64,000 nt of DNA, taken from a virus. Its lineage: Duplodnaviria > Heunggongvirae > Uroviricota > Caudoviricetes. The position numbers were made by a program, and so were the translations under genes. Under the pieces are notes generated by a model. It was not told where the DNA came from and did not search any database. It was given only the letters and a program-made list of their open reading frames with translations. This document shows, piece after piece, positions 11,463 to 35,700 of this stretch. Every line of letters begins with the position of its first letter. The first letter of the stretch is position 1. Location of the stretch: IMG/VR virus record IMGVR_UViG_3300024346_000020; one strand, written 5' to 3'.

Positions 11463-12156
11463 AAATTATTATTCTATACTTGGTGTGGCGAATACATCAA
11501 CTGAAAAAGAAATTAAGAAAGCTTATTATAAACTTTCGTTTGAGAACCATCCAGACAAAGGGGGTGATGCTGTCATCTTTGGTGAAATGACTGAAGCATA
11601 TGATATTTTATGTGGTGAAGAAAGAGAAGACTATGATAAGAAAAGTAAGTTTGGTAATTGTTATAACGAATACTTTGAACTTTTTGAAACAAACTTTGAC
11701 TACTCATATGATGATACTAAAGATAAATATGAAAAGTTTAAAAAGAATGAAGTTTATAATATTCATATTAAAGTTGATGATACCTTTGATGGTAAATTAG
11801 AATACGAAAGATGGGTTCGTTGTAAACCTTGTGATGGTACTGGAAAAGATCTTTCTTCTAAAATTGTTATCAAAGATAATGATGGTAATATTATGAAAAT
11901 ATTTGACTCAGAAGATGGTTGTGATTTGTGTGAAGGGACAGGAAAATATAGAGATCAAGATTGTCCATTTTGTCTTGGTAAAGGTAAAGTAGGTCTAAAT
12001 CCTTGTACAACTTGCAAAGGAGAAAGACGTATTTTAGGAAAGCAAAAACTTACTAAGATAAAACTAACTGGTGAAGAAACTAAAATCGATGCAATGGGTC
12101 ATTGTTCTAAAACTGAACCGGGTAAAGTAGGATATCTACTAATTATTAGTAATTAA
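11449..12156 (+). CDS. DnaJ-like co-chaperone: J domain plus a CR-type four-repeat zinc finger
   Basis: YYKLSFENHPDKGGD (HPD tripeptide of the J domain). Four CxxCxGxG repeats (CKPCDGTG, CDLCEGTG, CPFCLGKG, CTTCKGER). Confidence 0.75.
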   Translation: MNLNKNYYSILGVANTSTEKEIKKAYYKLSFENHPDKGGDAVIFGEMTEAYDILCGEEREDYDKKSKFGNCYNEYFELFETNFDYSYDDTKDKYEKFKKNEVYNIHIKVDDTFDGKLEYERWVRCKPCDGTGKDLSSKIVIKDNDGNIMKIFDSEDGCDLCEGTGKYRDQDCPFCLGKGKVGLNPCTTCKGERRILGKQKLTKIKLTGEETKIDAMGHCSKTEPGKVGYLLIISN

Positions 12157-15600: not shown

Positions 15601-17332
15601 CACCTGGTAAAAGTGATGTATATTGTCCATTTGGATATCCTTGTGCAGCACCAAATGTTAAATTTATATAACCATTAGTACAAGCTTGACGTGCATCAAA
15701 TCCAGTAAAATAATATGTATCTGAATAATTAGAATTGAAATGACCACCATTAAAGAATCCGTCAATCCAGTGTGTATTAAACATCTCTGTTATACGAGGG
15801 AATCCTTTGAATAATCCATTATTCCAAACACCAGAGAAATAACCATTAAAGAAACCACCAGATAGCCAAATATTTTTAGTTACCTTTATCTTATGGTTTT
15901 GAGAATCCTTCTCAATTCTTCTATAAGGAAAAGTTGTATCTAGATTTACTCTCATCCAACCATAAGCAGACTGTGTTTCTCCAGTTACAGAATAATTATA
16001 TGCGATACCCAAGTTTTCTATCTTATAATAATCTTTCAAAAGTTTCCTATTATCATTTATATCTATTGCAACAATATTGCCGATTGATACTGCAGATCCA
16101 GTTGCAAAGTTTGCAATTGAATATGTAGAACCTCTAATTTCAATTTTCCATGAAATATCCGATTCCGTTAAAACTGAAAATGCAACATCATCAAAGTCTC
16201 TTGCTTCTTCATCATCTCTCCAACCACTATTCCAAACACCATTCTCCCAAATACCTGATCTAAATAAACCATTACCGATTCTAGATGTTAGTGTATAAGG
16301 AGTTCCGTTTTGAAGTAGTATATGTGAATAAGTTGCTTCAAGAATATCAACTATTATTGGTGTAGTACCAGAATAACTTCCACTACCATCACTAGTTAGT
16401 TGTAATAAGTTATTTTTAGGATGATAAGCTCCAACGATATTAATATTATCCAAACTTGCTGCATAATTACTACTTTGTGATGCTGAGATAACTAAATAGT
16501 TTTTAGAACCATTTGTATTTGTACCTATTAAACTAGTAGTTGCGAATATTGTTGAAGATGTAAAACTTACGATAGAAGGTCCCCAAGAAGTTGGAGTTTT
16601 TAGTAAATCATTTCTAACTATATAAATACTCATTCCGTCACTTGTATTACTGAATGTGGAAGATGTATATTTTAGTTCTAAACTAAAAGTATCATACTCT
16701 ATAGGTTTTGCAATAAAATTTTTAGTAACTATCGTATCTAAACCAGAACCAAATATAGAGTATGTTGGTGTTATACTAGTAGAATTGTAAATCCAATTAT
16801 ATGAAGAAACCTGACTTGAATTATTACCAAAATACCATCCACTTGGTTGAGTATTATCATTAATTGATCTATCTAAGTAACTAAACTCTCTATAACCATT
16901 TATTAAAAAGTCAAGTTCATTTAATATAGATTTTGTAATTATTGATTGTGTAAAAGAATCATTCGCACCATATCTAACTATTGATTTTGATTTCAATGTA
17001 GATAAAGGAGTAGTATAAGTATAAAATTCAACACCTGTTTGTGTAATACCAGACACATCTGTTGTAACTGATGCAATAGAGTCTTTGAAGGGTGCATTAA
17101 ATCTAATAGATAATTGTGCACCAATTGTTGAAGTTGAGCTTGATACACCAGTAACTATTTGGTAGTTTTTACCCTGAGTGTAAGTATATCCACTTGGATA
17201 ATTAGTATCTATAACTCTACTATCAATATACACTATATTATCAACATTATTGGAATTTCTATTAATACCAATTTGTGATGATATAGTCGATGTGGTCCAG
17301 GACTGAATTAAATTTGTATCTATAAATGGCAT
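12683..17332 (-). CDS. giant virion structural protein (tail fibre or baseplate-like) with W-x-NG-x-F-NGG-x-F repeats and an acidic Q/D/G/Y-rich C-terminal tail
   Basis: 1549 aa, beta-rich and S/T/N-rich. Repeats such as IWLSGGFFNGYFSGVWNNGLFKGF...WIDGFFNGGHFNS are shared with the 19222..24816 protein. Confidence 0.6.
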   Translation of the reverse strand: MPFIDTNLIQSWTTSTISSQIGINRNSNNVDNIVYIDSRVIDTNYPSGYTYTQGKNYQIVTGVSSSTSTIGAQLSIRFNAPFKDSIASVTTDVSGITQTGVEFYTYTTPLSTLKSKSIVRYGANDSFTQSIITKSILNELDFLINGYREFSYLDRSINDNTQPSGWYFGNNSSQVSSYNWIYNSTSITPTYSIFGSGLDTIVTKNFIAKPIEYDTFSLELKYTSSTFSNTSDGMSIYIVRNDLLKTPTSWGPSIVSFTSSTIFATTSLIGTNTNGSKNYLVISASQSSNYAASLDNINIVGAYHPKNNLLQLTSDGSGSYSGTTPIIVDILEATYSHILLQNGTPYTLTSRIGNGLFRSGIWENGVWNSGWRDDEEARDFDDVAFSVLTESDISWKIEIRGSTYSIANFATGSAVSIGNIVAIDINDNRKLLKDYYKIENLGIAYNYSVTGETQSAYGWMRVNLDTTFPYRRIEKDSQNHKIKVTKNIWLSGGFFNGYFSGVWNNGLFKGFPRITEMFNTHWIDGFFNGGHFNSNYSDTYYFTGFDARQACTNGYINLTFGAAQGYPNGQYTSLLPGDYILITFESNVVDGGGYAGVALVIAVEHKIDPTNGIMFDVVTIDKVFDGRPITVPVGNTSIGSVIRYTATGLIQNFKFYDNNRSKIKSIDNPLSTAVFSFNSWIDVNYDSTRSVTLGRDFRMYEPLTKKSINRNNLYGYPTYDVLASLSRFRDSNTLDYKLYKLGTKYKAFTDFIGAGSEFNEPFNELDFSNFINVGWTSSYNNINNFSLKRTENIISLNNQLSTDFLNSGVTGDELYVNASNTGLILNNNNINISKSRYSIVEFDVITYSVASTNFTYKNPNIYLVKSIDSTGPFIETIYPGPSASLNNTILSSYSLGMSPPGPPGIQVDDILVTINLYGDVTSTIINLQAPNGSIINVKRNGSGLGTELSNTKFSLRDVYTKISLGTTPYIDTYLMDKQLNQGDESFQPPVGPVVPSYVSDVTTLSELISGGTIYGVWRLYIKYNPLVAIPCDLVNWSISIQYKDLVSIDTEPISTLPILNLSNLNYDITTQLSGYDNVQIYKKMNYLPIRENVNHLKVKNTFRLDSIEESTPAKWGGYGKNQPTKKYEYFYNKTDMMLSINGNGATGASTSMLVLDNLNMYEVDMIPFFKYFDEDNIYKGIQIPYIGEAPNIDYLNSDFVFVDNITVGVDAIDANGNNSLATDCQTAVVISSTPTTVSTFAVITNQSSTATDSRLLVINKNDTLPLQLNAYIIASNDISTPSLVTWTTLPTSTGPTITLSGSNTLNPIASGLGSGNYQLLVTAVSATSSNLPFPITDTARININVILSVVQVPTILVGNPSKLKGITYSVTDIPTQLGKNILSTELLSQYSSTAGAASKIKIISLPTVGKLIYNNVTYVDLQVNGEINISDITNYKMYYFPWGNPVDNNYGEGSGSLADITEEGSSYTTTFRYLIIDTANNQSPGITMSLFCTKGVVVVTVAGTTPQGNTPQPGDQGYIQDFEQEDQYDNQGDQGYDDQGQDNDGYDYP

Positions 17333-17368
17333 AAACTATATATTAAATTTATATACTACTTATGATAA

Positions 17369-19221: not shown

Positions 19222-22200
19222 TTATACATTGTCTATATTAGTACTATTACTAGTAGGTATGGATAAAGTACTACTTCTTGCGGTTATTTCTACTAAACAA
19301 CTAGATGCAGTAGAAGTAGGATTAAATACATATGAAGAACTTGCACTTCCTAAACTATTCAATGTAATAGTTCCTGTTCTACCTAAATGCAAAAAGTCTA
19401 TTGTCGCTACTGATACCGGAGATGAAAATGATATACCATTAAAAGTACCATCAACACTAGCCGTAAAATCAAGTGTTAGCACTTCATTCGGTTCTCCACC
19501 TGAGAAATCAAGTGTTCCTGCTCCTGAATTAGGTATCTCCGAGGTAATAGTCAATCCCCCACCTCCCGATGGTGTAGATGTTCTTGTATATTTTAAAACA
19601 TTAGAATGTGTTAAAGCTAGTGTTGGAGTTAAGGTAACAGTCGATTCAATTCTAAAATAAATATCTCCTGTTATAAGGAAGTCTGTAAAGTCATATAACT
19701 TATTAGTTGTAGTTACATCAGAATCAAAAAACCATGTTATATTATCTTCACTATATTGCCATTCTGCAGCAATTAGATTACTTAAACTACTTGTCAATAA
19801 AACGTCTACTAAACCAGAGATGTCCTCTATATCAGCATTTGAATTAGTATCAAGATATACTATAGTGATAGGAAGTACTGGTATACTAACCGCACCACCA
19901 AATGTTGAATTAGATTGCCAAACTGGTGGTGTATTAGTAGTCTCAGAAATTATAATAGTTGAATCATAAATTATATCTGTAGCATTTGAATCTATAGAAA
20001 TATTAATATTTGAAAGGGATTCATTTAGAAATATATTCCAAACATGACAAGATGAAGTAATACCTCTGGAAGGCCAATTCATACCTCTAAATAGAATTTG
20101 TTTTTCAAAATCACTGGTTATACTACCACCACTATCTAGATCAAAGCTAGATCCATACCAGTTACCATTTCTCCAAAGGCCATTTTCCCAAAAAATATTA
20201 TAAGCATTCATATAACTTACAATACCATTTTTCCAAATCATACCATATCCATTACCAGATATAAAGTTACCATTTTCCCATTCTGATATATAAAAATCAC
20301 TATCTATAAGTGTTCCATTTTTCCAAATACAAGTATCACTAATACTAAAAGTTGGTATAGATGTTGGTAGAAATATATTTCTATTTACATACGGATTAAA
20401 TGAACTTGACTTAAATGTACCATTTTCAAATGTACCATCTATCCAAACAGAGTTTTGTATAGTTCCACTTGGATGACTAAATGTTCCACCCATCCAAAGT
20501 ACATTTCTTAACACCACAGTTTTTAAATTTATATTGGTATCACTTGCTCTTTTTGAATCAATATATACCCCTCTATTGACGTATCTATCCTTAGTATCCG
20601 TTACAAATCCACTTTTCCAAATACCATAGCTATTTATACTTGAAGTTCCAAAAGATGTTATAAAGTTTTTTGCATTATTTGATTCAGTACCACCAATTGC
20701 ATAATAACCAGATTGTGTTCTACCTCCACCATCAAACTCTCCAACTGTAAATATACCATTATTCCAAACCTTGCCCTTAAAGTATCCACCATTAAATTCT
20801 CCATCAAACCAACTTGAATTACTTACAACAGAACTATTATTTAATATACTTAAATCCCCAATTCCAAACTCACCACCATTAAATACACCATATTCCCAAG
20901 AATAATTAGCTTTAATATCTGATGTAGAATATAATATAAGTTGTGATGAATTATAATATGACGTAAATTTACCACCATTAAATACACCATTTAACCATTT
21001 AGCTGTTCCAGTAAACTCACCACCATTAAATACCCCTCCAGACCAAGTAGCTAAATTAAGATTGTTGTATGTACTAAAAATTCCACCATTAAATATACCA
21101 TTTCTCCATTGTATAAGACCATTTCTATTTATCCCTGGTGCTCCTAAAATTCCTAGTGGTAATTTTAGATTTGTCTGTGCAATAAGTTCTGCATTTTCAA
21201 CAGTTGTATAATTTATAATACCATTATAAACTTTTGTATATCCAGTTGTTATGGAAGAATCTCCTATTATACCACCATTTATCGTACCGTTATAGAATTT
21301 TGAATAGTAAAATTTACCACCATTAAAGTCTCCACCTTCCCAATCACTTTTATAAAACTCTCCATTTATAAATTTACCTTTTTGCCAAGACCATCTATTA
21401 TTCATTACTTCAGAAGCACGTGGACGTGGGGTGAATAAACCGACGGAAGCAAATATTATAATTTCTTTTGTTAAACCACTTTTATAAAAGTCATTTCTAT
21501 TATTGTCATTATATGAGAAATCAATAATATTACCATCAAAAGAATTTGAACTATAGAATAACCCATTATTAAATACACCATCTAACCAAGTTGAAGATTT
21601 AACCAAACCATCATTAAATGTCATACCATTCCAAATAGAATTATATAAAATACCATTTTCCCATATATCATTACCACCTACAAAAAATGAATTCATATAA
21701 GTTGCCTTAGATAAAATATTTGAGTTTTTAGAAAATATAGAATCTATTATTAATAAACTCTTTATTTTTTCAACATTATTAAATTCTCTATCACTAACAT
21801 CATATAACTCATTTTTTATTAAAGATGTATTAAAATATGCTTTTTTAAATATACCAGATAATATTTTTGATCTATAAAATTTAGTTTTGTGTAAATATCC
21901 ATATCTATTATTCGCACCATAAGAACTAAATTTACCACCACCCGTTAAACCAGGCAAAATACTTGTTGAACCAATTGCAATAATTTCTTGTAGTTGATAA
22001 TTACCCTGTGGTAGATCTTTAACTATTTTATATTGATCTGGTAATCTAGTCAAAGAACCTGTTATACCAGTTACTGAGAATGTTGCATTGTTTCCTGAAT
22101 TAGGTTGAATAATTGTTAGTATATCACCATTTGAATATCCTAAACCAGGATAATTAATATTTACTGATAAAACTGCACCATTATTTACTGAAGTAATAAG

Positions 22201-24816
22201 AATAATATCATCACTACCACCACCTTGTTGAACTCTTTGCATAGATACTGTAGATCCTACTGAATATCCAGATTGTCCAGTTCCAGGTACAATAGCAATT
22301 GAACTTGTATTTCCTGCAAACATACTAAATTGTAGTAGTCCATTTCCACCATTAACACCACTATCAGTAGAATATATATTATAGCCCAAATTTGGAATAC
22401 CACTACCTTCAGATATTAAAGTGAAACCAGTCACCTGACCTATAACACTTGCAGTAATATCAACAGTTAGTCCTGTTCCTTCCCCAGTCACTGAAGTTTT
22501 TGATGCTGATGCTGTATTATAATATGATCCAGTACCAGAGAAAGAAATGCCTGTCACTTTTCCTCTAGAATCATAATCGACTGCATTTAAGAATACTACT
22601 TCACCTAATGCTAAGTAGTCATTTTCTACTTCTTGATATCGGTCATTTGTAGTGGAATAAAGTGTTTTAACATTTATAGACGATGTTCCACCAACTAATG
22701 ATATATTATAATATCCACCTCTGTTAGAAAGATCTCCATACTTATCATCTGAATTCCAAATCTGTGCTGAGTCATCAAGCTTTATATTCACATCATTACT
22801 AAAATTGAAATAATTTCCACTATTCCAATTAGAATTTTCAAAAATACCACTTTCAAAGTCAGAGTTTAAAATATAAGCATCCGAATAATCAATAGTAAGA
22901 TCTGGTAATGTAACAGATAAATTTTGAATATCTGAAAGAGTAACAAAGATATCAATAGAATATCCGAAATTATCTTTAATAGTCGCAATATTTGGATTTA
23001 AAGAATTTGCAGTATAATTAACATCTGATAAGTAATCATTATCTTTTGGAGTTGAGAGCATACAGTTATACTCAAATCCTCTTTTATACCATTTTTTACC
23101 AGAGAAAGATGGAGATAAATCAAATTTATCAGTATATTCAACATAAGGTCCTATTTTAAATTTTTTATCAAAGAAGTTAAGTAATAAATTATCATTACTA
23201 TTTATCTTCAATCCTTTTATATAAAAGGTATCTTTAAACTTAAACTTCTCATAACTTCTTTTATTTATATAAAATTTATAAATCTTATGTGATGCAGACT
23301 GTGCACTAGCTTGACTAAACTCTGTTTCCTCAAAATGTAATATTCTTATTGAATTATCACTAATATAATTAGAGTTTTTAAATAAAGACTTTTTATACTG
23401 TGTATTTATTGACTTAACATTATAAAATCTACTATTTTCTACTCTTGAGTTTTTTACAACTGAGTTTTGTATATTTGCATTTTGAATACCACAACTTTCA
23501 AAATAAGCTTTATTTATAAGTGTGTCACTAAAATTATTCTGTATAAACTGTGTGGTCAGTGTTCCTCTTAAATGCTCTTCTACAATTGAATATGATGTAG
23601 ATGATGTACCTAATATTGAGTTACTAACATTCGCATTATTTATAATTGCATTTCTTATTTCTGAATTTATAACAAAATTATAACCATATCCATCATTATC
23701 TGGATTAGTTGATTTTTGATATGGTGCACCAAAAGTACCCACAATATTATCAAACTCAGAAACATAACTTTGTAGTTGACTTTGTTTAGATTCCATTATT
23801 CCTCTTTCCCAAATAGTATTTAATAAAGTACCTGAGTTCCAAATAGATGAGGTAGAGCCCCAAGTAATTCTTTTATCATTACTACCATAAATACCACCAT
23901 TCCAATTTCCATTGAAAGTACCATTTCTAAAATTAGATTTAGATATTAAAGGAACATTTTTATTTTCATGTTTTACATTTACTTGCCAACTTGAAAAAGT
24001 ACCAAATGTTTCATAACTATAAACTAAATTCTCTTGAAAATCTACTCCATAATAGTTAAAACTATTATTTAATATTAGTATTTTGTCTGCACTCGCAGTA
24101 GCCGCAATAGAATATGAACCAATCATAAAATCAATACTTATATTGATCCAACTTGAAGTTCCATTTTTAATAAAAAATCCAGGTCCACCATTTAAACCCA
24201 GTGATTCACCCCAAGGGCCAGTTACACTATGACTTGGTTCTGATGTAAATATTATATTATTTTGATTTTTATTAAATCTATAATCAAAATCCCCTCCACG
24301 AGTTGTAATCTGTCTATTTACATGAATAAAGTCATTCTGATCTTTAACATAATAAACTTTAATTAGATTATCTAAGTCATCACTTGGCTCTGTTGCTTCG
24401 TTACTAGGTAAACTACCATTGAACTCTATATCCAATACAACTTGACACTTATCTACAAATAAAACTTTATAACCATCATGACCTTTTTTATACTTATCAC
24501 TTGCTATTAGTAAATTACTATCATAAGTACCATTGATTATAAATACTCTATCTCCTATACTAAATCCAGAGTTAACTTCTGTATAGAATAAAGTATAATC
24601 AACACCCGCTATTTTATAAGGTTCAACCCAATTTAAAAGTTTAGGACTACAAGGTATACCATATTTTAAAACTACATTTGTATCATCACTTGTTAGATTT
24701 AATTGTGGGTCATATCCTACTAGATTAATATCTTGACCAATTTGATTTAATTCTTCTGTGGTTATTAAATAAGGTTTGGTGAATAGATTCTTTTTCACTA
24801 AATTTGTTGAACTCAT
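19222..24816 (-). CDS. giant virion structural protein (1864 aa) with numerous W-x-(N/D)G-x-F-NGG-x-F repeats
   Basis: WSGGVFNGGEFTGTAKWLNGVFNGGKFT..., WEYGVFNGGEFG..., WFDGEFNGGYFKGKVWNNGIFTVGEFDGGG. Glycine/aromatic periodicity suggests a beta-helix or fibre. Confidence 0.6.
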   Translation of the reverse strand: MSSTNLVKKNLFTKPYLITTEELNQIGQDINLVGYDPQLNLTSDDTNVVLKYGIPCSPKLLNWVEPYKIAGVDYTLFYTEVNSGFSIGDRVFIINGTYDSNLLIASDKYKKGHDGYKVLFVDKCQVVLDIEFNGSLPSNEATEPSDDLDNLIKVYYVKDQNDFIHVNRQITTRGGDFDYRFNKNQNNIIFTSEPSHSVTGPWGESLGLNGGPGFFIKNGTSSWINISIDFMIGSYSIAATASADKILILNNSFNYYGVDFQENLVYSYETFGTFSSWQVNVKHENKNVPLISKSNFRNGTFNGNWNGGIYGSNDKRITWGSTSSIWNSGTLLNTIWERGIMESKQSQLQSYVSEFDNIVGTFGAPYQKSTNPDNDGYGYNFVINSEIRNAIINNANVSNSILGTSSTSYSIVEEHLRGTLTTQFIQNNFSDTLINKAYFESCGIQNANIQNSVVKNSRVENSRFYNVKSINTQYKKSLFKNSNYISDNSIRILHFEETEFSQASAQSASHKIYKFYINKRSYEKFKFKDTFYIKGLKINSNDNLLLNFFDKKFKIGPYVEYTDKFDLSPSFSGKKWYKRGFEYNCMLSTPKDNDYLSDVNYTANSLNPNIATIKDNFGYSIDIFVTLSDIQNLSVTLPDLTIDYSDAYILNSDFESGIFENSNWNSGNYFNFSNDVNIKLDDSAQIWNSDDKYGDLSNRGGYYNISLVGGTSSINVKTLYSTTNDRYQEVENDYLALGEVVFLNAVDYDSRGKVTGISFSGTGSYYNTASASKTSVTGEGTGLTVDITASVIGQVTGFTLISEGSGIPNLGYNIYSTDSGVNGGNGLLQFSMFAGNTSSIAIVPGTGQSGYSVGSTVSMQRVQQGGGSDDIILITSVNNGAVLSVNINYPGLGYSNGDILTIIQPNSGNNATFSVTGITGSLTRLPDQYKIVKDLPQGNYQLQEIIAIGSTSILPGLTGGGKFSSYGANNRYGYLHKTKFYRSKILSGIFKKAYFNTSLIKNELYDVSDREFNNVEKIKSLLIIDSIFSKNSNILSKATYMNSFFVGGNDIWENGILYNSIWNGMTFNDGLVKSSTWLDGVFNNGLFYSSNSFDGNIIDFSYNDNNRNDFYKSGLTKEIIIFASVGLFTPRPRASEVMNNRWSWQKGKFINGEFYKSDWEGGDFNGGKFYYSKFYNGTINGGIIGDSSITTGYTKVYNGIINYTTVENAELIAQTNLKLPLGILGAPGINRNGLIQWRNGIFNGGIFSTYNNLNLATWSGGVFNGGEFTGTAKWLNGVFNGGKFTSYYNSSQLILYSTSDIKANYSWEYGVFNGGEFGIGDLSILNNSSVVSNSSWFDGEFNGGYFKGKVWNNGIFTVGEFDGGGRTQSGYYAIGGTESNNAKNFITSFGTSSINSYGIWKSGFVTDTKDRYVNRGVYIDSKRASDTNINLKTVVLRNVLWMGGTFSHPSGTIQNSVWIDGTFENGTFKSSSFNPYVNRNIFLPTSIPTFSISDTCIWKNGTLIDSDFYISEWENGNFISGNGYGMIWKNGIVSYMNAYNIFWENGLWRNGNWYGSSFDLDSGGSITSDFEKQILFRGMNWPSRGITSSCHVWNIFLNESLSNINISIDSNATDIIYDSTIIISETTNTPPVWQSNSTFGGAVSIPVLPITIVYLDTNSNADIEDISGLVDVLLTSSLSNLIAAEWQYSEDNITWFFDSDVTTTNKLYDFTDFLITGDIYFRIESTVTLTPTLALTHSNVLKYTRTSTPSGGGGLTITSEIPNSGAGTLDFSGGEPNEVLTLDFTASVDGTFNGISFSSPVSVATIDFLHLGRTGTITLNSLGSASSSYVFNPTSTASSCLVEITARSSTLSIPTSNSTNIDNV

Positions 24817-24896
24817 TAAAACGGTTTAGTTTTTATCTATATATAAATTTATTAATAGTATCTAAACAAATTTTACCCTTTTAACTATAATTAAAT

Positions 24897-25622
24897 ATGA
24901 ATAAACGAAAAAAAATATTAGTATTCTCTGGTGCAGGACTCTCGAAAGAAAGCGGGATTGAAACCTTTAGAGACTCTAAGGAAAGCTTATGGAACAATTT
25001 CAAGATTGAAGATGTTGCTACCATCGATGCATGGAGAAAAGATAAAGAATTAGTACTAAAATTCTACAATGAACGTAGGGCACAATTAAAAGAAGTAAAA
25101 ACAAATCTAGCACATAGACTTATAGCAGAGTTAGAGAATGAATTTGATGTAACTGTAGTTACACAGAATGTAGATAACTTACACGAAAGAGCAGGATCTA
25201 CTAACATAATACACTTACACGGAGAACTAACCAAAGTACGTTCAACATTAGACCCAAGACTAATCTACGATTGGACAGAAGACGTAAATATAGGAGATAA
25301 ATGTGATAAGGGATCTCAACTAAGACCACATATCGTTTGGTTTGGTGAGGCATTAAATCCAGATTATATGAGTAAAGCAGTAAAAGCAGCAGAACAATGT
25401 GACTATTGTATAATAGTCGGAACTTCTTTACAAGTTTTACCTGCAAATGAAATTCCATTTTTAACAGATGTAGAAGTACCCGTATATTATATTGAACCAT
25501 CTAATATAGATATGGTTATGTATGATATACCAGACTATAAATTACCTTATTTCCACCATGTGAAAAAGGTTGCCACAAAAGGAATGCAATATATTTTTAA
25601 CCAATTAAACAAACAAATATAA
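24897..25622 (+). CDS. Sir2-family NAD-dependent protein deacylase / ADP-ribosyltransferase (CobB-like)
   Basis: GAGLSKESGIETFRD (GAGIS-ESGI-TFR), QNVDNLHERAG (QNID-LH), HGELTKVRS and IVWFGE motifs, all characteristic of sirtuins. Confidence 0.8.
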   Translation: MNKRKKILVFSGAGLSKESGIETFRDSKESLWNNFKIEDVATIDAWRKDKELVLKFYNERRAQLKEVKTNLAHRLIAELENEFDVTVVTQNVDNLHERAGSTNIIHLHGELTKVRSTLDPRLIYDWTEDVNIGDKCDKGSQLRPHIVWFGEALNPDYMSKAVKAAEQCDYCIIVGTSLQVLPANEIPFLTDVEVPVYYIEPSNIDMVMYDIPDYKLPYFHHVKKVATKGMQYIFNQLNKQI

Positions 25623-25625
25623 ATA

Positions 25626-25880
25626 ATGGAAGATAGAGATTATATTTTTGATAATTTTAGAAAGTCATATAGTATAAAAGATAAATACTACGATTTAGGT
25701 AATTATATGAAAGTAGATAAGTATGGTAATTATACCAGTGCTCTTGAAGACTTTTTAGGTTACTACAAAGCAGATAAGTCTGCAAAACGTGAAGAAACTC
25801 CGCAAGAAAGAGAGGCTCGTTTATTAAGAGAGAAAGCAGAAGCCAGAGAAGCTAAAATTGATCAAATACTTAAAAAATAG
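25626..25880 (+). CDS. hypothetical small protein with a charged helical C-terminus
   Basis: ORF; REETPQEREARLLREKAEAREAKIDQ. Confidence 0.4.
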   Translation: MEDRDYIFDNFRKSYSIKDKYYDLGNYMKVDKYGNYTSALEDFLGYYKADKSAKREETPQEREARLLREKAEAREAKIDQILKK

Positions 25881-26129
25881 TATGGATAGTGGAGCAACTA
25901 CTTATAATGATGTTATGAAAAACTTTCATTTGACTATAAATAATTTAATGAGACCTATTAAAAGAAAAAAGATAATAAAAAGTGTACTTATTAAAACCGA
26001 GAAGAATAGGTAGTACTTATATGAACATAAAAAGAATAATGGATTCATATAAGTCATATAAGAGATATTCTCGTAAAGAAAGTATAAAAAGAATATTTAA
26101 TATATAGTTTATCAAAAATAATTAAATAA

Positions 26130-26687
26130 ATGGATTTACAAGAACTATTAAACGAATGGAATATTAAATGTGATGTTACTACACTACTTGCTATGTGGAA
26201 TGAATCACATAGATCTTATCACACTTTAAATCATCTAAATGATTTAATCGAACAAATAAATGAGGGAAAATCTAAATACTCTCAAAAGGAATATGAGAAA
26301 TTACTAATTACTGCACTTTTTCATGATTGTATTTATGATCCAATGAAAACTGATAATGAAGAAAGATCTGCAGACTTCTTTATAGAATGTTGTCAAGATA
26401 AAGATAGTAAAGATAATAAAGAAATTAGACAAATGATTTTAGATACTAAAAATCATGAAGCTACTACAAACTTATCTGAATCATTTAACTACTATGATAT
26501 GAATATTGTTGAAAGAGATTTCGATCAGTTGCTAGAGTGGGAGAAAGGTATCTCAGAAGAATATAAAGGATATGGTGATTCATATAAAGATGGTAGATTG
26601 AAATTTTTAGAATCTTTATTAGATAAATATCCAAATAATACAGAAAACTTATTAAAATTAGTTGACTGGATAAAAGAAAATTACTAA
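26130..26687 (+). CDS. HD-domain phosphohydrolase-like protein
   Basis: H...H (HTLNH) followed by ALFHDCIYDP (HD dyad) at the correct spacing. Confidence 0.5.
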   Translation: MDLQELLNEWNIKCDVTTLLAMWNESHRSYHTLNHLNDLIEQINEGKSKYSQKEYEKLLITALFHDCIYDPMKTDNEERSADFFIECCQDKDSKDNKEIRQMILDTKNHEATTNLSESFNYYDMNIVERDFDQLLEWEKGISEEYKGYGDSYKDGRLKFLESLLDKYPNNTENLLKLVDWIKENY

Positions 26688-26692
26688 AAGAA

Positions 26693-26718
26693 AAACCACT
26701 CATTTGAGTGGTTTTTTT
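26693..26718. terminator. bidirectional rho-independent terminator between convergent genes
   Basis: aaaaCCACTCAttTGAGTGGttttttt. Confidence 0.8.
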
Positions 26719-27460: not shown

Positions 27461-27534
27461 ATTACAATAATAATTTTTTATTATATATTAAAAAAAATAT
27501 AAAAAAAATTCACTTTTTAAGGTGGATTTTAAAA

Positions 27535-28644
27535 TTATTTCTTAAATTCTTTTTTATCAGAAGAAATGTAGAACTTATCGAAGTCATAATACTTAGAATA
27601 AACTTCTTTAATCTTTTTCAAAGTAACCTCTTCTAATATATCATACACCGACCAACCCGTGGGATTTATCCATTGATTCACAGAAGCATATCTATTGATT
27701 TCATCTTTTTGTTTTCTAACACCATAGTATTCTTTAACAAGGTTAAATCTTTCTTTAGTTAAAAACTTATCTGGATTTGTAATAACTTTCTTAACTGCTT
27801 CTACAACCTCATCAAAGTTTTTATTTGAAGTCAATGTTGAAATAGAATTTAATCCTTTATCATTTACTCTTGACTGATAACAATGAACGAAATAAACTAA
27901 TCCTTTTTTCTCTCGTATCTCTTGATATAATGGAGATTTCAATCCTAATGATAACATAGCATTGATAAAATGAACATATGCAAAGTCTTCTTCAATTACT
28001 GGTGAAAGAATTACAACAGAAGTTTTATCTTTAAAATCATTGTTTAATTCTAAATCTGTATCGTGATTACCAAAACTTAAATTAGTTACGATTTTTCTTT
28101 CTTGAAACTCAACCGCTTTATTTTTATAATCTTTGTTTTTAGATACATTGATAATTTTAGTTGGTTTTGCATATTGTAATTCAAAGAAGTTAAGACAATC
28201 CATAAATTTTAGATTCTCTAAATCTTTTTTCAATCCAATTGGATCATAATCATTAAATAACTTTCTAGAAAGATTTAACATATGAGATTGAGATTGATCA
28301 TTGAAACAATCCATATACTCTTCAAGAACAATTTTTCTTTCGTTTTCAAATTCCTCTTTAGTAACTTTAAAAGAAGTTAGTAAGTCGACAAATTGATTTT
28401 TATATTTATTTACCTTTTCATCTAATCCAGTTAAATAGAATACAATTTCATTTGATGAAGTATAAGCATTCCAGTCGATGCCGTCTCTATCAAAGTCTTC
28501 TTGTAAGTGATCGAATGATTTGCATAAAAGGTGTTCCATAATATGACTTATCCCATACCAACCCGGTTTTTCTAAGTTTGTTGAACCCTCATACACAACA
28601 TAGAATCCACTTAAATCAGTTGGACTTTTTAAATTTACTATCAT
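27535..28644 (-). CDS. M16-family (insulinase/pitrilysin-like) zinc metallopeptidase
   Basis: GISHIMEHLLCKSF contains the inverted zincin motif HxxEH, at the N-terminal position typical of M16 peptidases. Confidence 0.6.
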   Translation of the reverse strand: MIVNLKSPTDLSGFYVVYEGSTNLEKPGWYGISHIMEHLLCKSFDHLQEDFDRDGIDWNAYTSSNEIVFYLTGLDEKVNKYKNQFVDLLTSFKVTKEEFENERKIVLEEYMDCFNDQSQSHMLNLSRKLFNDYDPIGLKKDLENLKFMDCLNFFELQYAKPTKIINVSKNKDYKNKAVEFQERKIVTNLSFGNHDTDLELNNDFKDKTSVVILSPVIEEDFAYVHFINAMLSLGLKSPLYQEIREKKGLVYFVHCYQSRVNDKGLNSISTLTSNKNFDEVVEAVKKVITNPDKFLTKERFNLVKEYYGVRKQKDEINRYASVNQWINPTGWSVYDILEEVTLKKIKEVYSKYYDFDKFYISSDKKEFKK

Positions 28645-28748: not shown

Positions 28749-29396
28749 ATGATTACATTAGGATTATCAGGTAGTAGATACTCGGGAAAGAAAACAACTG
28801 TTGAGGTATTCAAGAGAATAGGTATACCCGTGTTTGATGCAGACCTTATTTTAAAGTTTATCTTAAATCATAATCACGAGTTATTAAGTGATGTAAGAAA
28901 AGAGATAGGTTCTGATTTCTTCATAAATCACCAATTGAATTTTCGTGGAATGAAGAAAGCTACTTTTGATAAAGTTCTTGATATCATTGAAGATGATCTC
29001 TTCAATGCCTTTACTAAGTTCTGTGATAGATATGAAAGAAAGGGTGCTATCTATACCATTTTTCATTCATCACTTTTATTTGAAAGGGAATGGGATAAAA
29101 AAATTGATTTAAGTATTACTGTATTTTCTCCAGAAGGAGATAGATTAAAAAGAGCTCGTTATCAAACTAATGAAGGTTTATTAAACATTAGAGATAGAAT
29201 GAAAACTGAAATGGATCCACTTCAGAAAAATCAAATGGCAGACTATATTATAAACAACTACAATAATGGTGAAGTAGTAGGTCATATCGGTTTACAACCT
29301 ACTAAATTACCAAGTTTAGTAAAACAAGTAAATCAAATCGATCAAAAAGTTATTGATGAATATTTATATAAAGAAAGCTTAATACTTTGTGTGTAA
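28749..29396 (+). CDS. P-loop nucleotide kinase, T4 gp1 dNMP kinase-like (or dephospho-CoA kinase-like)
   Basis: N-terminal MITLGLSGSRYSGKKTT matches the L-SG-x-x-SGK-TT P-loop of T4 dNMP kinase and CoaE. Size about 215 aa. Confidence 0.45.
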   Translation: MITLGLSGSRYSGKKTTVEVFKRIGIPVFDADLILKFILNHNHELLSDVRKEIGSDFFINHQLNFRGMKKATFDKVLDIIEDDLFNAFTKFCDRYERKGAIYTIFHSSLLFEREWDKKIDLSITVFSPEGDRLKRARYQTNEGLLNIRDRMKTEMDPLQKNQMADYIINNYNNGEVVGHIGLQPTKLPSLVKQVNQIDQKVIDEYLYKESLILCV

Positions 29397-29871: not shown

Positions 29872-30288
29872 ATGGCAAACGCACATATACATTCAGTATC
29901 TTCCGCTCGTAGATTTGGTGGTCAACCAGAGGATTACTTAACAATTCACATAAAAATGGATTGTTCTAAAGCTTATTTATCAGATAATAGACATAGAGCT
30001 TTAACACACCACGGGTTTTGGATACACGAGGTGATGATACCTATATTCGGATACACAATCACAAACTCAGATGATAAAGTTGTATCTGTGAAAGATATAT
30101 GTGAACAACATATATTAGAAGACTTTGGAATGAGGTTTATTCCAACCGCACAAGATTATCTTGAAAATTTGGAATTCAAAGAATGGATGCAAAACGGATT
30201 AAAGGATAATCCATCTTCTGCGATAAAAATTACACAAAAAAATAAAATCGGACAAATACCTAGTCCAACTAATACAATTTTAGACTAA
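29872..30288 (+). CDS. hypothetical protein
   Basis: ORF; ATG immediately follows the upstream TAA. Confidence 0.4.
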   Translation: MANAHIHSVSSARRFGGQPEDYLTIHIKMDCSKAYLSDNRHRALTHHGFWIHEVMIPIFGYTITNSDDKVVSVKDICEQHILEDFGMRFIPTAQDYLENLEFKEWMQNGLKDNPSSAIKITQKNKIGQIPSPTNTILD

Positions 30289-31054: not shown

Positions 31055-32953
31055 ATGGTAGATCAGATTTTGGGTTATTGGCCCGTACTTTTAACGCTCG
31101 TATGTATCGTTATGTACAAATTTATTTTTCGTGTATTTTTCGGACTAGTCATTGTTCCTGAGGACAAGGTTGGTTTGGTTACGAAAAAATTCGTTCTTTT
31201 TGGAGACAATAAAGAACTTAGTGGTGATAGAATCATCGCAGTAAACGGTGAAGCAGGTTTACAAGCTAAAATGCTTTCTCCTGGTTTACATTGGTGGATG
31301 TGGCCTTGGCAGTATTCTGTTGATATGCAAGCATTTATCGTTATTCCAGAGGGACATATTGGACTAGTTTCTTCTAAAGATGGTAGAGTTCCTAAAACTG
31401 GACGTATCTTAGCACGTAGAGTTGAGTGTGATAACTTCCAAGATGCAGTAGCTTTCCTTAATAACGAAGGACAAAAAGGACGTCAGTCTGCATATATTAC
31501 GAATGGTACTTATAAAATCAACACTCACTTATTTGAAGTGTCTGCCGTTAAACAAGTAAGTGTACAAGAGAATATGGTTGGTATTGTAACTACAATGGAT
31601 GGTGAACCACTTAACACTGGTCAAATTGCCGGAGAACCTGTAACAGGACACAATAACTTCCAAGATTTTGATACATTCTTATCTGAGGGTGGTAACAGAG
31701 GTTTGCAACAACAAGTAATCCTTGCGGGTTCTTATAACTTAAATCCTTGGGCTGTTCAAGTTGAAGAAGTACAAATGACTGAAATTCCTATTGGTAATGT
31801 TGGTGTTGTTATTTCTTATGTTGGTGCTGATGGTGTTGACTTAACTGGTGATAACTTCAAACACGGTAACTTAGTGTCAAAAGGACAAAAAGGTGTTTGG
31901 GCTGAGCCACTTGGACCCGGTAAGTATGCAATCAATAGATATACTAATCGTATTGAAGTTGTACCTACTACTAACTTAGTTCTTAACTGGGCTAATGCTA
32001 GAACAGAGTCTCACAACTTAGACAAAGGATTGAGTACGATTACAGTACGTTCTAAAGATGGTTTCCCATTTAACTTAGACGTTTCTCAAATCATTCACAT
32101 TCCAATGACAGAAGCACCAAAAGTAATCGCTCGTTTCGGTTCTATGTTAAATCTTGTATCACAAGTATTAGAGCCTACAATTGGTAACTACTTCCGTAAC
32201 TCTGCACAAGATTCAGACGTTATTGCGTTCTTATCTACTCGTCAAATTAGACAAGATGCTGCCAAAGCTTCTATCTCTGCTGTACTTGATGAATATAACG
32301 TTCACGCTGTAGATACATTGATTGGAGATATTACTCCACCAGAGTCTTTGATGAAAACTCTTACTGATCGTAAGATTGCAGAAGAGCAACAAGTGACTTA
32401 CGAGACACAGAAAAAAGCTCAAGTTCAAAGACAGACTCTTGAAAAAGAAACTGCAATTGCAGATATGCAAGGTGAATTAGTAAAAGCAGATCAAGGTGTT
32501 CAGATTTCTGAAAGATTGGCAGACTCAGCAGTTAAAGATGCAACTGGTAAAGCTCGTTCAGTAAAAATTGCAGCAGAAGCTAACGCAGAATCTACAACAT
32601 TGAATGCTAAAGCAGAAGCTACAAGAAAAACTCTTATTGGAGATGCTGAAGCGAATGCCATCTTAGCAGTGGGTAAGTCAACCGCTGAATCTTACAGATT
32701 AGCTGTTGACGCAATGGGTCAAGATAACTTCACGACTTATAAAGTAACAGAAGAAATCGGTAAAGGTAATGTGAAAATTATGCCAGACTTACTTATCAAT
32801 GGTGGTGGTCAAGGTGGAAATGGTTCATTAGATGGATTACTTGGAGTTCAAATCATGAATATGATGGGTAAAGGTTTCAAAAATCTTGAGACAACAGAAA
32901 TTCCTGCTGAAGTGGTAGTAACAACTACCGAAGATAAAAAAGGAAAAAAATAA
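31055..32953 (+). CDS. flotillin / YqiK-like SPFH-domain membrane protein
   Basis: N-terminal TM helix (WPVLLTLVCIVMYKFIFRVFFGLVIV), a central SPFH-like region, and a C-terminal Ala/Glu-rich flotillin repeat region (AEANAESTTLNAKAEATRKTLIGDAEANAILAVGKSTAES). Confidence 0.65.
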   Translation: MVDQILGYWPVLLTLVCIVMYKFIFRVFFGLVIVPEDKVGLVTKKFVLFGDNKELSGDRIIAVNGEAGLQAKMLSPGLHWWMWPWQYSVDMQAFIVIPEGHIGLVSSKDGRVPKTGRILARRVECDNFQDAVAFLNNEGQKGRQSAYITNGTYKINTHLFEVSAVKQVSVQENMVGIVTTMDGEPLNTGQIAGEPVTGHNNFQDFDTFLSEGGNRGLQQQVILAGSYNLNPWAVQVEEVQMTEIPIGNVGVVISYVGADGVDLTGDNFKHGNLVSKGQKGVWAEPLGPGKYAINRYTNRIEVVPTTNLVLNWANARTESHNLDKGLSTITVRSKDGFPFNLDVSQIIHIPMTEAPKVIARFGSMLNLVSQVLEPTIGNYFRNSAQDSDVIAFLSTRQIRQDAAKASISAVLDEYNVHAVDTLIGDITPPESLMKTLTDRKIAEEQQVTYETQKKAQVQRQTLEKETAIADMQGELVKADQGVQISERLADSAVKDATGKARSVKIAAEANAESTTLNAKAEATRKTLIGDAEANAILAVGKSTAESYRLAVDAMGQDNFTTYKVTEEIGKGNVKIMPDLLINGGGQGGNGSLDGLLGVQIMNMMGKGFKNLETTEIPAEVVVTTTEDKKGKK

Positions 32954-33048: not shown

Positions 33049-33074
33049 ATTTATAATTTTTAATATATACAATT

Positions 33075-35664: not shown

Positions 35665-35700
35665 CTTAATAAATTATTTTTATTAAACTATATATTAAAT

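What the first reader, a model, noticed from the sequence alone, without database searches (positions are those of the whole stretch)
24897..26687. Sir2 deacylase/ADP-ribosyltransferase plus HD-domain phosphohydrolase gene pair in a phage context
A compact CobB-like SIR2 (it shows the CDKGSQ stretch but not the full pair of zinc-binding CxxC...CxxC motifs by eye) is followed on the same strand by a small helical protein and an HD-domain protein. The trio is transcribed divergently from the giant structural gene and ends at a strong bidirectional terminator. SIR2 and HD domains are recurrent effector or signal-degrading modules in bacterial anti-phage systems (Thoeris, DSR, SIR2-HerA; HD nucleases and phosphodiesterases) and in phage counter-defence. 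The same genome encodes an NAD-dependent ligase, so NAD+ handling may matter to this phage. The trio could be an NAD+/nucleotide-signal manipulating anti-defence module or a hijacked defence island
Basis: inference. Interest (0 to 1): 0.55.

Follow-up and report, generated by a model that had tools for sequence, protein, structure and literature searches.

The report
Phage CobB-type sirtuin beside HD phosphodiesterase
A huge Bacteroidetes-infecting phage carries an ordinary CobB-type protein deacylase a few genes upstream of an uncharacterised phosphodiesterase-like HD enzyme, but the two are independent passenger genes, not a defence or counter-defence module.

Summary
ORFs at 24897-25622 (Sir2), 25626-25880 (84 aa) and 26130-26687 (HD) lie on one strand, divergent from a 1864-aa gene, and end at a bidirectional hairpin (26691-26716).

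The Sir2 is a class III, CobB/SIRT5-type sirtuin with all catalytic motifs. It has no hit to defence-system models. Its nearest cellular relatives are the sirtuins of Bacteroidota, the predicted host phylum. These also lack the four zinc cysteines, so the missing CxxC pairs are a lineage trait and not a phage novelty.

The HD protein belongs to a large uncharacterised HD family. Its predicted fold (pLDDT 97.7) is closest to class I cyclic-nucleotide phosphodiesterases. In Bacteroidota it is often fused to a CoaD-like phosphopantetheine adenylyltransferase.

Sir2 and HD are not a coupled module:
- HD keeps its place in 7 related phage loci that lack Sir2.
- The spacer between them varies from 424 to 2105 bp.
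- None of 80 bacterial Sir2 loci has an HD neighbour.
- More distant huge phages carry one gene without the other.
- HD has its own conserved promoter-like motif (TTAATATATA), shared with the giant gene and other genes in the window.

Sirtuin genes occur in about 1000 phage records. Verdict: new members of known kinds, of low to moderate interest.

The parts
24838..24847 (-). Promoter-like motif TTTATATATA, 21 nt upstream of the ATG of the divergent 1864-aa gene
   Evidence: This is one of 16 TT[AT]ATATATA sites in the window, against 4.8 +/- 2.3 in shuffles. 13 of the 16 lie within 24 nt upstream of a same-strand ORF start.
24897..25622 (+). Class III (CobB/SIRT5-like) sirtuin, 241 aa, without the four zinc-binding cysteines
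   Evidence: Pfam SIR2 E=1e-42. phrog_2162 'Sir2 (NAD-dependent deacetylase)' E=2e-45. PDB CobB 6rxj/1s5p at E about 1e-45, with alignment. AF2 model pLDDT 89.9. Foldseek top hits are Sir2-Af1, CobB and SIRT5 at TM 0.8. No PADLOC hit.
25626..25880 (+). 84-aa phage-specific small protein; its start lies 3 nt after the Sir2 stop; function unknown
   Evidence: No hit in Pfam, NCBIfam, PHROGs or PADLOC. Homologues of 36-56% identity occupy the same slot in relatives (88% in the near-identical L090). It is retained in L103/L104, where Sir2 is replaced.
26021..26107 (+). Possible 28-aa ORF (41 aa from a GTG at 25982) ending in ...IKRIFNI; coding status uncertain
   Evidence: It shares the C-terminal motif [IV][DNKS][KQR]I[FL] with the 84-aa protein. 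These are the only 2 ORFs in the window with the motif, against 0.075 expected. Similar tails occur on small ORFs in the same spacer of L001 and L002.
26097..26106 (+). Promoter-like motif TTAATATATA, 23 nt upstream of the HD start codon
   Evidence: 12 exact copies in the window against 2.5 expected. The motif is conserved at the same distance upstream of HD in more than 20 related loci, including L083, which has no Sir2.
26130..26687 (+). HD-superfamily enzyme with a phosphodiesterase-like fold, 185 aa, from an uncharacterised family (JGI product name 'predicted metal-dependent HD superfamily phosphohydrolase')
26691..26716 (.). Bidirectional intrinsic-terminator-like hairpin between HD and the convergent 246-aa gene
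   Evidence: 11-bp stem with 4 GC pairs, a 4-nt loop, flanked by an A-run and a T-run.
28749..29396 (+). Context gene: CoaE-like (dephospho-CoA kinase family), syntenic with HD and the M16 peptidase in most relatives
   Evidence: Pfam CoaE E=1e-16. The only PDB hits are dephospho-CoA kinases and one unnamed Thermus protein. Synteny is shown.

Best explanation
The region is a plastic slot in the genome of a huge, Mahaphage-like phage of Bacteroidota. It holds independently acquired, host-like auxiliary genes, not a dedicated system.

(1) Sir2. The gene encodes a class III CobB/SIRT5-type sirtuin. It most likely removes acetyl and succinyl-type acyl groups from lysines of host or phage proteins, consuming NAD+ and releasing nicotinamide and O-acyl-ADP-ribose. 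Its small domain folds without structural zinc, as in the Bacteroidota sirtuins it descends from.

(2) The 84-aa protein is a phage-specific small protein of unknown role.

(3) HD. The gene encodes a metal-dependent phosphodiesterase with a PDE-type active site: H31 as a likely general acid one helical turn before the metal ligand H35, then H65-D66 and D123. It has its own phage promoter-like motif, of the same class as the giant gene, so it can be transcribed independently of Sir2. Its substrate is unknown. My best guess, by inference, is a phosphodiester in the CoA/4'-phosphopantetheine branch. Candidates are release or recycling of 4'-phosphopantetheine, or cleavage of dephospho-CoA or CoA. 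The reasons are that nearly half of the family's representatives are fused to a CoaD-like phosphopantetheine adenylyltransferase, and that the phage gene stays syntenic with a CoaE-like kinase.

Shown: domain identities, motifs, folds, phylogenetic neighbourhood, synteny statistics and the promoter motif. Inferred: catalytic activities, substrates, timing of expression and the benefit to the phage.
For: Sir2 type:
- Searches place it in class III.
- Motifs GAGLS, FR, Y57xxR60, QNVD, H108G and GTS are present in the window protein; most of their key residues are invariant across 53 phage-clade homologues, the rest nearly so.
- The fold matches Sir2-Af1, CobB and SIRT5 at TM about 0.8.

Not defence:
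- There are no PADLOC hits.

Host-like origin:
- The best 80 genome hits are nearly all Bacteroidota at 45-58% identity.
- 81 of the 82 Sir2 sequences scored (80 bacterial plus the two related phages) have 2 or fewer Cys in the zinc module.
- The phage copies form their own clade with no bacterial locus inside.
- The related 634- and 642-kb phages are predicted to infect Bacteroidetes.

Commonness:
- Sir2 homologues occur in 1006 phage records.

HD:
- establish the family, its invariant residues and its fold.
- Fusion to CoaD-like domains is shown (TIGR01510 92-106 bits against a cutoff of 103).
- Synteny with the CoaE-like gene is shown.

Independence of Sir2 and HD:
- Of 29 HD-selected phage loci, 21 have Sir2 upstream and 7 informative loci lack it. 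These include L083 and L104, where an endonuclease-like ORF sits in the Sir2 slot.
- The Sir2-to-HD gap varies from 424 to 2105 bp. Mean identity to the window is 61% for Sir2 and 77% for HD.
- None of the 80 bacterial Sir2 loci has an HD homologue within 5 kb.
- Distant huge phages carry one gene without the other.
- HD has its own conserved TTAATATATA motif.
Against: - Sir2, the small ORFs and HD are co-oriented with no predicted terminator between them. Read-through co-transcription is therefore possible.
- The adjacency is kept in about three quarters of the related loci.
- No enzyme activity was measured.
- The CoA-related substrate guess rests only on domain fusion and loose synteny. The three bacterial contexts of the fused gene that were examined showed no CoA operon, and no PPAT gene was found in the window.
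- The closest structural neighbours are cyclic-nucleotide PDEs and the ADP-ribose-processing PDE domains of SidE. These would fit a signalling or ADP-ribose substrate at least as well.
- Loss of the zinc site could in principle mean altered or lost deacylase activity.
Confidence: 0.6

Rival explanations
1. Counter-defence enzyme. The PDE-like HD protein degrades nucleotide immune signals, such as cyclic mono-, di- or oligonucleotides of Pycsar, CBASS or type III CRISPR, or the cyclic ADP-ribose isomers of Thoeris. Sir2 would be an unrelated or auxiliary NAD-linked factor.
For: - The YHxxxH / HD / D arrangement mirrors the PDE active site.
- HD-superfamily phosphodiesterases of jumbo phages have been predicted to act as counter-nucleotide defences (PMC7824862).
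- Structurally similar HD proteins occur in other jumbo phages.
Against: - The same family, with the same invariant residues, is a chromosomal gene in Bacteroidota, often fused to a CoaD-like adenylyltransferase.
- No model of a known defence or anti-defence family matched.
- The gene carries the promoter-like motif also found before the giant and other very large ORFs. If those are late structural genes, this is not the timing expected for an anti-signal enzyme. That step is inference.
- Sequence-level matches to PDEs are not significant (E 0.6).
Confidence: 0.15
2. Coupled NAD+/ADP-ribose module. Sir2 consumes NAD+ as a deacylase or ADP-ribosyltransferase, and the HD phosphodiesterase processes its product. 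It would cleave the pyrophosphate of O-acyl-ADP-ribose or ADP-ribose, or of a protein-linked ADP-ribose, as the SidE PDE domain does.
For: - The genes share a strand, with no predicted terminator between them.
- Sir2 lies upstream of HD in 24 of 32 related phage loci.
Against: - HD is retained in the same place without Sir2 in 7 loci.
- The intervening content is variable.
- HD has its own conserved promoter-like motif.
- No bacterial Sir2 locus has an HD neighbour, 0 of 80.
- Bacterial HD genes are fused to CoaD-like domains, not linked to Sir2.
- Distant huge phages have one gene without the other.
- The Sir2 has the full deacylase signature and does not look like an ADP-ribosyltransferase-type sirtuin.
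Confidence: 0.12
3. Hijacked defence island. The Sir2 is an NADase effector of the Thoeris, DSR or SIR2-HerA type captured by the phage, with HD as a nuclease or effector partner.
Against: - None of the three proteins hits a PADLOC model.
- No SLOG, HerA, TIR, pAgo or other partner domain is present. The protein is a bare 241-aa sirtuin core.
- Best matches are CobB, Sir2-Af1 and SIRT5 by sequence and fold.
- The locus is core-syntenic in a phage clade, next to the M16 peptidase and CoaE-like genes.
Confidence: 0.03

Closest known systems
E. coli/Salmonella CobB and other class III sirtuins (human SIRT5, Archaeoglobus Sir2-Af1)
   Same: - About 45% identity to CobB over the core in the printed alignment; Foldseek reports 36-37% over the full model.
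- The same NAD+ and acyl-lysine motifs, including the YxxR pair that recognises succinyl or malonyl groups in SIRT5 and CobB. The role of that pair is from my own knowledge of the family.
- The same fold, at TM about 0.8.
   Different: - The four zinc-ligand positions carry only one Cys.
- Scores fall below the NCBIfam CobB cutoffs: 180-201 bits against 243-320.
- The gene is encoded by a phage.
- The C-terminal 50 residues are divergent.
Single-copy CobB-like sirtuins of Bacteroidota (Flavobacterium, Dyadobacter, Bacteroidales, Cytophagales)
   Same: - These are the closest cellular relatives, at 45-58% identity.
- They have the same zinc-less small module, with 0-2 Cys in 81 of the 82 Sir2 sequences scored, which include the two related phages.
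- Bacteroidota is the likely host phylum.
   Different: - The phage copies form a separate clade.
- The bacterial genes have no HD or p84 neighbours.
Phage-encoded Sir2 / 'NAD-dependent deacetylase' genes (PHROG 2162; T5-like coliphages, KVP40-like vibriophages, other jumbo phages)
   Same: - The same family (phrog_2162 E=2e-45).
- Homologues are found in 1006 phage records.
- Phage sirtuins have been noted in surveys (PMC9503650, PMC7824862).
   Different: - Identity is only 33-47%.
- Those copies derive from other host lineages.
- None has been reported next to this HD family.
Class I cyclic-nucleotide phosphodiesterases (PDE1-PDE9 catalytic domains) and the PDE domains of Legionella SidE
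   Same: - They share the H-x3-H, HD and D metal/acid arrangement.
   Different: - The phage protein is half the size, 185 aa against about 330 aa.
- Identity is 12-21%.
- There is no significant sequence or Pfam PDEase_I match.
- The second motif is FHDxxYDP rather than the HDxxHxG that I recall from PDEs.
- Substrate-pocket elements are absent.
Bacteroidota HD + CoaD-like fusion proteins ('adenylyltransferase/cytidyltransferase family protein', e.g. WP_313983993.1 of Xanthocytophaga flava)
   Same: - The N-terminal domain is homologous to the phage HD protein (E 1e-17 to 1e-34, 31-48% identity).
- Its invariant residues are identical.
   Different: - The phage protein lacks the adenylyltransferase domain.
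- No PPAT gene is present in the window.
- The function of the fusion protein is itself untested.

Membership tests
Sir2/sirtuin family (Pfam PF02146) | Domain match above the curated threshold over the full Rossmann core | tested here: met
   146.6 bits against a cutoff of 24, covering residues 12-182 of the protein and positions 1-180 of 180 in the profile.
Sir2/sirtuin family | Catalytic His and NAD+-binding motifs (GAGxS, FR, QNxD, HG, GTS) | tested here: met
   The alignment to CobB shows GAGLS, TFR, TQNVDNLH, HLHG and VGTS. Across 53 clade members most of the key residues are invariant (including G12, G14, F24, R25, Q90, N91, H108, G109, G175, T176, S177), the rest nearly so.
Sir2/sirtuin family | Structural zinc site formed by four cysteines in the small domain | tested here: not met
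   There is one Cys (C136) between the HG motif and RPHIVWFGE. The same holds for the 120 closest metagenome homologues and for 81 of the 82 Sir2 sequences scored. The AF2 model still predicts the small beta module with pLDDT 92-94.
Class III sirtuins (CobB/SIRT5 type) | YxxR pair in the acyl pocket; best similarity to CobB, SIRT5 and Sir2-Af1 | tested here: met
   Y57-N-E-R60 aligns with the YNAR of CobB and is invariant in the clade. The top PDB hits by sequence and by fold are CobB, Sir2-Af1 and SIRT5.
CobB equivalog (NCBIfam NF040867, NF001755, NF001753) | Score above the curated equivalog or subfamily cutoff | tested here: not met
   Scores are 201, 183 and 180.5 bits against cutoffs of 243, 318 and 320. 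The C-terminal 50 residues are not covered.
Defence-system SIR2 effectors (ThsA, DSR1/2, SIR2-HerA, SPARSA and others) | Match to the system's SIR2 models and presence of partner domains or genes | tested here: not met
   PADLOC-DB gives no hit at E<0.1 for any of the three proteins. No fused SLOG, TIR, HerA or pAgo domain is present, and the neighbours are phage core genes.
HD superfamily of metal-dependent phosphohydrolases | H...HD...D metal-binding signature on the all-helical HD fold | tested here: met
   [not shown]
HD superfamily (Pfam PF01966) | Score above the gathering threshold for this protein itself | tested here: not met
   13.6 bits against a cutoff of 22, E=0.085.
Class I cyclic-nucleotide phosphodiesterases (PF00233) | PDEase_I profile match with the full ~330-aa catalytic domain and its nucleotide pocket | tested here: not met
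   [not shown]
COG4339 / 'predicted metal-dependent HD superfamily phosphohydrolase' | Assignment to the COG/PIRSF model | not testable with these tools
   JGI gives that product name to many close homologues. The link from the name to COG4339 rests on my own knowledge. No paper in the library mentions COG4339.
YqeK-type Ap4A hydrolases (HD, linked to nadD) | Match to the YqeK family models or a close fold match | tested here: not met
   [not shown]

The most novel reading that the evidence does not exclude
The HD protein would represent an uncharacterised, PDE-like phosphodiesterase family shared by huge phages and Bacteroidota. Its substrate would be a nucleotide-derived signal or an ADP-ribose/CoA-type dinucleotide. 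In the phage it would work with the neighbouring sirtuin and the CoaE-like kinase to reprogramme the host's NAD+/acyl-CoA/lysine-acylation state, or to destroy immune second messengers. That would be a new enzymatic route for phage takeover or counter-defence.
Probability: 0.15. Interest if true: 0.6.

Novelty: new member of a known kind. Interest (0 to 1): 0.28.

Why it matters
As posed, it matters little. Phage-borne CobB-type sirtuins and HD phosphohydrolases are both common in large phages, and this pair is not a defence or counter-defence system.

Three by-products could interest specialists:
- A whole Bacteroidota-plus-phage clade of class III sirtuins has dispensed with the supposedly universal structural zinc site.
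- A large uncharacterised HD family has a cyclic-nucleotide-PDE-like core and is fused to a CoaD-like adenylyltransferase in nearly half of its representatives. That gives a concrete biochemical hypothesis to test.
- A clear phage promoter-like motif (TT[AT]ATATATA) assigns genes of these huge phages to a common regulatory class.

Tried and rejected
- Defence-system membership: PADLOC scan of the three proteins gave nothing.
- NCBIfam naming of HD and p84: nothing significant.
- Sequence and profile searches of HD against the PDB gave only non-significant hits (E 0.17 or worse).
- Literature searches for COG4339, for HD plus phosphopantetheine adenylyltransferase fusions, and for NMDAR2C-type misannotations found nothing on this family.
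- The afdb50 fold library was not available.
- A degenerate-pattern search with the diverse HD alignment failed because no stretch was conserved enough. A closer alignment worked.
- PPAT gene in the window or in related phage loci: none found.
- Conserved operon around the bacterial HD-CoaD fusions: none in three contexts.
- HD neighbour of bacterial Sir2 genes: 0 of 80 loci.
- The idea that Sir2 and p84 form a strict two-gene cassette was rejected, because L103 and L104 keep p84 while Sir2 is replaced by an endonuclease-like ORF.
- The idea that the missing zinc cysteines are a phage-specific innovation was rejected, because the bacterial relatives lack them too.
- A sigma-70 consensus promoter scan was uninformative in this AT-rich DNA: 22 sites found against 20.6 expected.
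Full report
**Observation**

- A 241-aa ORF lies at 24897-25622.
- An 84-aa ORF lies at 25626-25880 and starts 3 nt after the previous stop.
- A 185-aa ORF lies at 26130-26687.
- All three are on the plus strand, divergent from a 1864-aa ORF (19222-24816, minus strand).
- They are followed by a perfect 11-bp hairpin flanked by A- and T-runs at 26691-26716, which faces the convergent 246-aa gene.
- The 250-bp gap between the 84-aa ORF and the HD ORF contains only very small ORFs.
- The window is AT-rich (about 29% GC). It is about 71% identical at the DNA level, over the aligned 45-59% of the 4-kb query, to two uncultured huge phages, LR745206.1 (634,780 bp) and LR756502.1 (642,428 bp).
- Genomes of 634 and 642 kb (matching these two records in length) belong to the Mahaphage clade; those above 634 kb are predicted to replicate in Bacteroidetes (PMC7162821).
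- Other genes in the window fit that kind of phage: DnaJ, SbcC-like, an S1-domain protein, tyrosyl-tRNA synthetase, a sigma-70-family factor, an SPFH protein, M16 and M28 peptidases, a CoaE-like kinase and an NAD-dependent DNA ligase at 45591-47426.

**The Sir2 protein**

It is a full-length match to Pfam SIR2 (E=1e-42) and to the phage family phrog_2162, 'Sir2 (NAD-dependent deacetylase)'.

Type and catalytic competence:
- Its best solved relatives are E. coli CobB (6rxj, 1s5p; E about 1e-45), Archaeoglobus Sir2-Af1 and SIRT5.
- The alignment to CobB shows every catalytic and NAD+-binding element: GAGLS, TFR, the class III Y57-x-x-R60 pair, TQNVDNLH, the catalytic H108 in HLHG, RPHIVWFGE and VGTS. 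Most of their key residues are invariant across 53 homologues of the phage clade, the rest nearly so.
- An AlphaFold model (pLDDT 89.9) superposes on Sir2-Af1, CobB and SIRT5 with TM about 0.8.
- It scores below the NCBIfam CobB cutoffs, mainly because the last 50 residues are divergent.
- It matches no model of a defence system.

Zinc site:
Only one cysteine remains in the small domain.
- This is not a phage peculiarity. The 120 closest metagenome homologues have 1-3 Cys there.
- The 80 best matches among 185,579 species genomes are almost all Bacteroidota (Flavobacterium, Dyadobacter, Bacteroidales, Cytophagales; 45-58% identity).
- With the two related phage loci included, 81 of the 82 Sir2 sequences scored have 0-2 Cys.
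- The model still predicts the three-stranded small module with pLDDT 92-94.

Phylogenetic position:
- In a neighbour-joining tree, the window, the related phage loci and all 120 metagenome hits form one clade that contains no bacterial locus.
- Three of those metagenome proteins were checked and sit in the same phage synteny.
- The gene is therefore a phage lineage of the host phylum's housekeeping-type sirtuin.

Commonness:
- Sirtuin genes of this kind are common in phages. There are 1006 phage records with E<=1e-10, including coliphages, Salmonella, Klebsiella and Vibrio phages. They have been noted in surveys (PMC9503650; PMC7824862).

**The HD protein**

For the window protein itself, Pfam HD is only a sub-threshold hit, but membership of the superfamily is secure.
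- The family is large, with 4750 cluster representatives at E<1e-3.
- H31, H35, H65-D66, T106, D123, E144, Y152 and R156 are invariant in 72 diverse members.
- 27 of those members pass Pfam HD at E<0.01 on their own.
- The AlphaFold model is very confident (pLDDT 97.7).

Structural neighbours:
- No solved structure is detectably related by sequence.
- The conserved Y-H31-x3-H35 lines up with the YHNxxH of PDEs in the weak profile alignments.
- I therefore infer phosphodiesterase chemistry with a general-acid histidine one turn before the first metal ligand.

Distribution and fusions:
- Structurally similar 'phosphohydrolases' occur in other jumbo phages, and sequence homologues occur in a handful of cultured phages.
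- The most informative clue comes from bacteria. 57 of the 128 representatives of 170 aa or more are 300-400 aa long. 43 of them were aligned, and these carry a C-terminal domain with the PPAT signatures GSFNPFHxGH, LIRGLRN and ISSSxIR.
- That domain scores 92-106 bits on the CoaD equivalog model, whose cutoff is 103.
- The fusions are chromosomal in Cytophagales and Sphingobacteriales, including Xanthocytophaga, Microscillaceae and Mucilaginibacter. Three contexts showed no conserved operon.
- JGI's occasional product name 'pantetheine-phosphate adenylyltransferase' for HD-only phage proteins probably comes from these fusions; this is my inference.
- The phage has no PPAT in the window. However, its HD gene is syntenic with a CoaE-like gene in most of the 29 related loci (20 of 29). 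The only significant PDB relatives of that CoaE-like protein are dephospho-CoA kinases and one unnamed Thermus protein.

**Is it a module?**

The evidence says no.
- Among 29 phage loci recovered through the HD protein, 21 have Sir2 upstream on the same strand. Seven informative loci do not.
- In L083 (a 598-kb contig), HD directly follows the divergent giant gene.
- In L103 and L104, the Sir2 slot holds a 289-aa endonuclease-like ORF, while the homologue of the 84-aa protein is kept.
- In the more divergent L093 and L111, HD follows the M16 peptidase gene.
- The distance from Sir2 to HD ranges from 424 to 2105 bp and contains one to six different small ORFs (up to six in L114).
- Homing-endonuclease-like genes have entered this slot: a GIY-YIG gene before Sir2 in L114 and a LAGLIDADG-like gene after HD in L104.
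- HD is better conserved than Sir2, at a mean of 77% against 61% identity to the window.
- None of the 80 bacterial Sir2 loci has an HD homologue within 5 kb.
- Among more distant huge phages, LR756501 (735 kb) and LR756504 (636 kb) have an HD homologue without Sir2 within 8 kb. LR756500 and LR756511 have a Sir2 without any HD homologue.
- HD has its own upstream signal. TTAATATATA lies 23 nt before its ATG and is conserved at that distance in more than 20 relatives, including the Sir2-less L083.
- That motif is over-represented in the window (12 exact copies against 2.5 expected; 16 against 4.8 for TT[AT]ATATATA).
- 13 of the 16 sites lie 4-5 nt or 18-24 nt upstream of a same-strand ORF start. 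These include the giant gene, the convergent 246-aa gene and ORFs of 1549 and 1068 aa.
- Sir2 lacks the motif. In most relatives it is preceded instead by a TAnnTTTG box, the Bacteroidetes -7 promoter element as I know it. The window's version (TAACTATA) is degenerate.
- Read-through from Sir2 into HD remains possible, because no terminator is predicted between them. Even so, the two genes are not an obligatory unit.

**Mechanism**

- I take the Sir2 to be an NAD+-dependent lysine deacylase (deacetylase or desuccinylase) that acts on host or phage proteins. This is inferred from complete motif conservation and family membership; it was not measured.
- I take the HD protein to be a metal-dependent phosphodiesterase. 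Its substrate is unknown.
- The domain fusion to a CoaD-like enzyme and the CoaE synteny make a phosphodiester of the CoA/4'-phosphopantetheine branch my first guess. A precedent is that E. coli ACP phosphodiesterase AcpH is itself an atypical HD enzyme (from my own knowledge).
- The structural neighbours make cyclic nucleotides or ADP-ribose derivatives serious alternatives.
- The 84-aa protein has no detectable relatives outside these phages. It shares a C-terminal [IV][DNKS][KQR]I[FL] tail with the neighbouring mini-ORF and with small ORFs in the same spacer of L001 and L002. I have no function to propose for it.

**Comparison, novelty and verdict**

The Sir2 is a new member of a well-known kind: phage-borne, CobB-type class III sirtuins. 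It fails only the zinc-site feature, as does its whole Bacteroidota lineage. The HD protein is a member of the HD superfamily. It is not a member of the class I PDE family, the YqeK family or any named defence family. It belongs to an uncharacterised family that deserves biochemical study. The reading as a defence island is rejected. A counter-defence role for the HD enzyme remains possible but is not favoured. Overall interest is low to moderate.

Noticed in passing
window 175-184, 5934-5943, 17337-17346(-), 24838-24847(-), 26097-26106, 27482-27491(-), 33060-33069, 35689-35698(-), 45509-45518(-), 54591-54600(-), 56700-56711, 58231-58240: The motif TT[AT]ATATATA is over-represented (16 sites against 4.8 expected). 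13 of the 16 sites lie just upstream of a same-strand ORF start, in two spacing classes of 4-5 nt and 18-24 nt. It is probably a promoter class of this phage group. The short spacing suggests leaderless or near-leaderless mRNAs.
   Followed up: partly
L003-L082 (bacterial Sir2 loci) and window 25215-25340: The Bacteroidota CobB-like sirtuins closest to the phage protein lack the canonical four zinc cysteines. Of the 82 Sir2 sequences scored (80 bacterial plus two related phages), 81 have 0-2 Cys. Reviews describe the Cys4 zinc site as a general sirtuin feature (PMC8603916).
   Followed up: partly
P0267, P0297, P0406-P0521; loci L088, L089, L113: Nearly half of the representatives of the HD family are fusions of the HD domain to a CoaD-like phosphopantetheine adenylyltransferase. 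They are chromosomal in Cytophagales and Sphingobacteriales, and no paper in the library describes them.
   Followed up: partly
window 25626-25880 and 26021-26107; L001 7451-7681, 8334-8537, 8527-8679; L002 7972-8124: Small ORFs in the Sir2-HD spacer end in a shared basic/hydrophobic tail (...KIDQILKK, ...IKRIFNI, ...VIDKILG, ...KINRIFEK, ...VKKIFNI, ...IKKILG). This suggests a family of paralogous mini-proteins. Only these two ORFs in the window carry the motif, against 0.075 expected.
   Followed up: partly
L104 6711-7580 and 8579-9388; L114 4304-5026: Homing-endonuclease-like genes occupy this slot in relatives. A 289-aa ORF replaces Sir2, a LAGLIDADG-like ORF follows HD, and a GIY-YIG/NUMOD ORF precedes Sir2. 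The region between the giant gene and the M16 peptidase gene is an insertion hotspot.
   Followed up: no
window 27535-28644(-) and 28749-29396(+): An M16-family peptidase (76-98% identical in close relatives) and a divergent dephospho-CoA-kinase-like gene stay syntenic with HD across most related loci (M16 in 23 of 29, CoaE-like in 20 of 29), more stably than Sir2 does.
   Followed up: partly
window 19222-24816(-), 12683-17332(-), 37993-42270(-), 42280-45486(-): These are very large ORFs of 1864, 1549, 1425 and 1068 aa. None was scanned against Pfam here; homologues of the 1864-aa protein in related loci carry no hit beyond a faint pentapeptide match. The 1864-aa protein is rich in short N/G/S-containing repeats. 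Three of them (all but the 1425-aa ORF) carry the TT[AT]ATATATA motif upstream. Their 'structural' nature was not verified.
   Followed up: no
window 209-2356, 11449-12156, 29872-30288, 31055-32953, 35755-36843(-), 49307-49909, 55247-56503: The window holds several host-like genes typical of huge phages: a collagen-repeat protein, DnaJ, DUF6915, an SPFH/Band 7 protein, an S1-domain protein, a sigma-70-family factor and tyrosyl-tRNA synthetase.
   Followed up: no
Acinetobacter phage MD-2021a records CAKLQH020000004.1/CAKLQH020000011.1 (hits H15, H22): An unrelated metagenomic phage assembly carries both an HD-family fragment (31% identity) and a cobB (43% identity), but on different contigs.
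   Followed up: no
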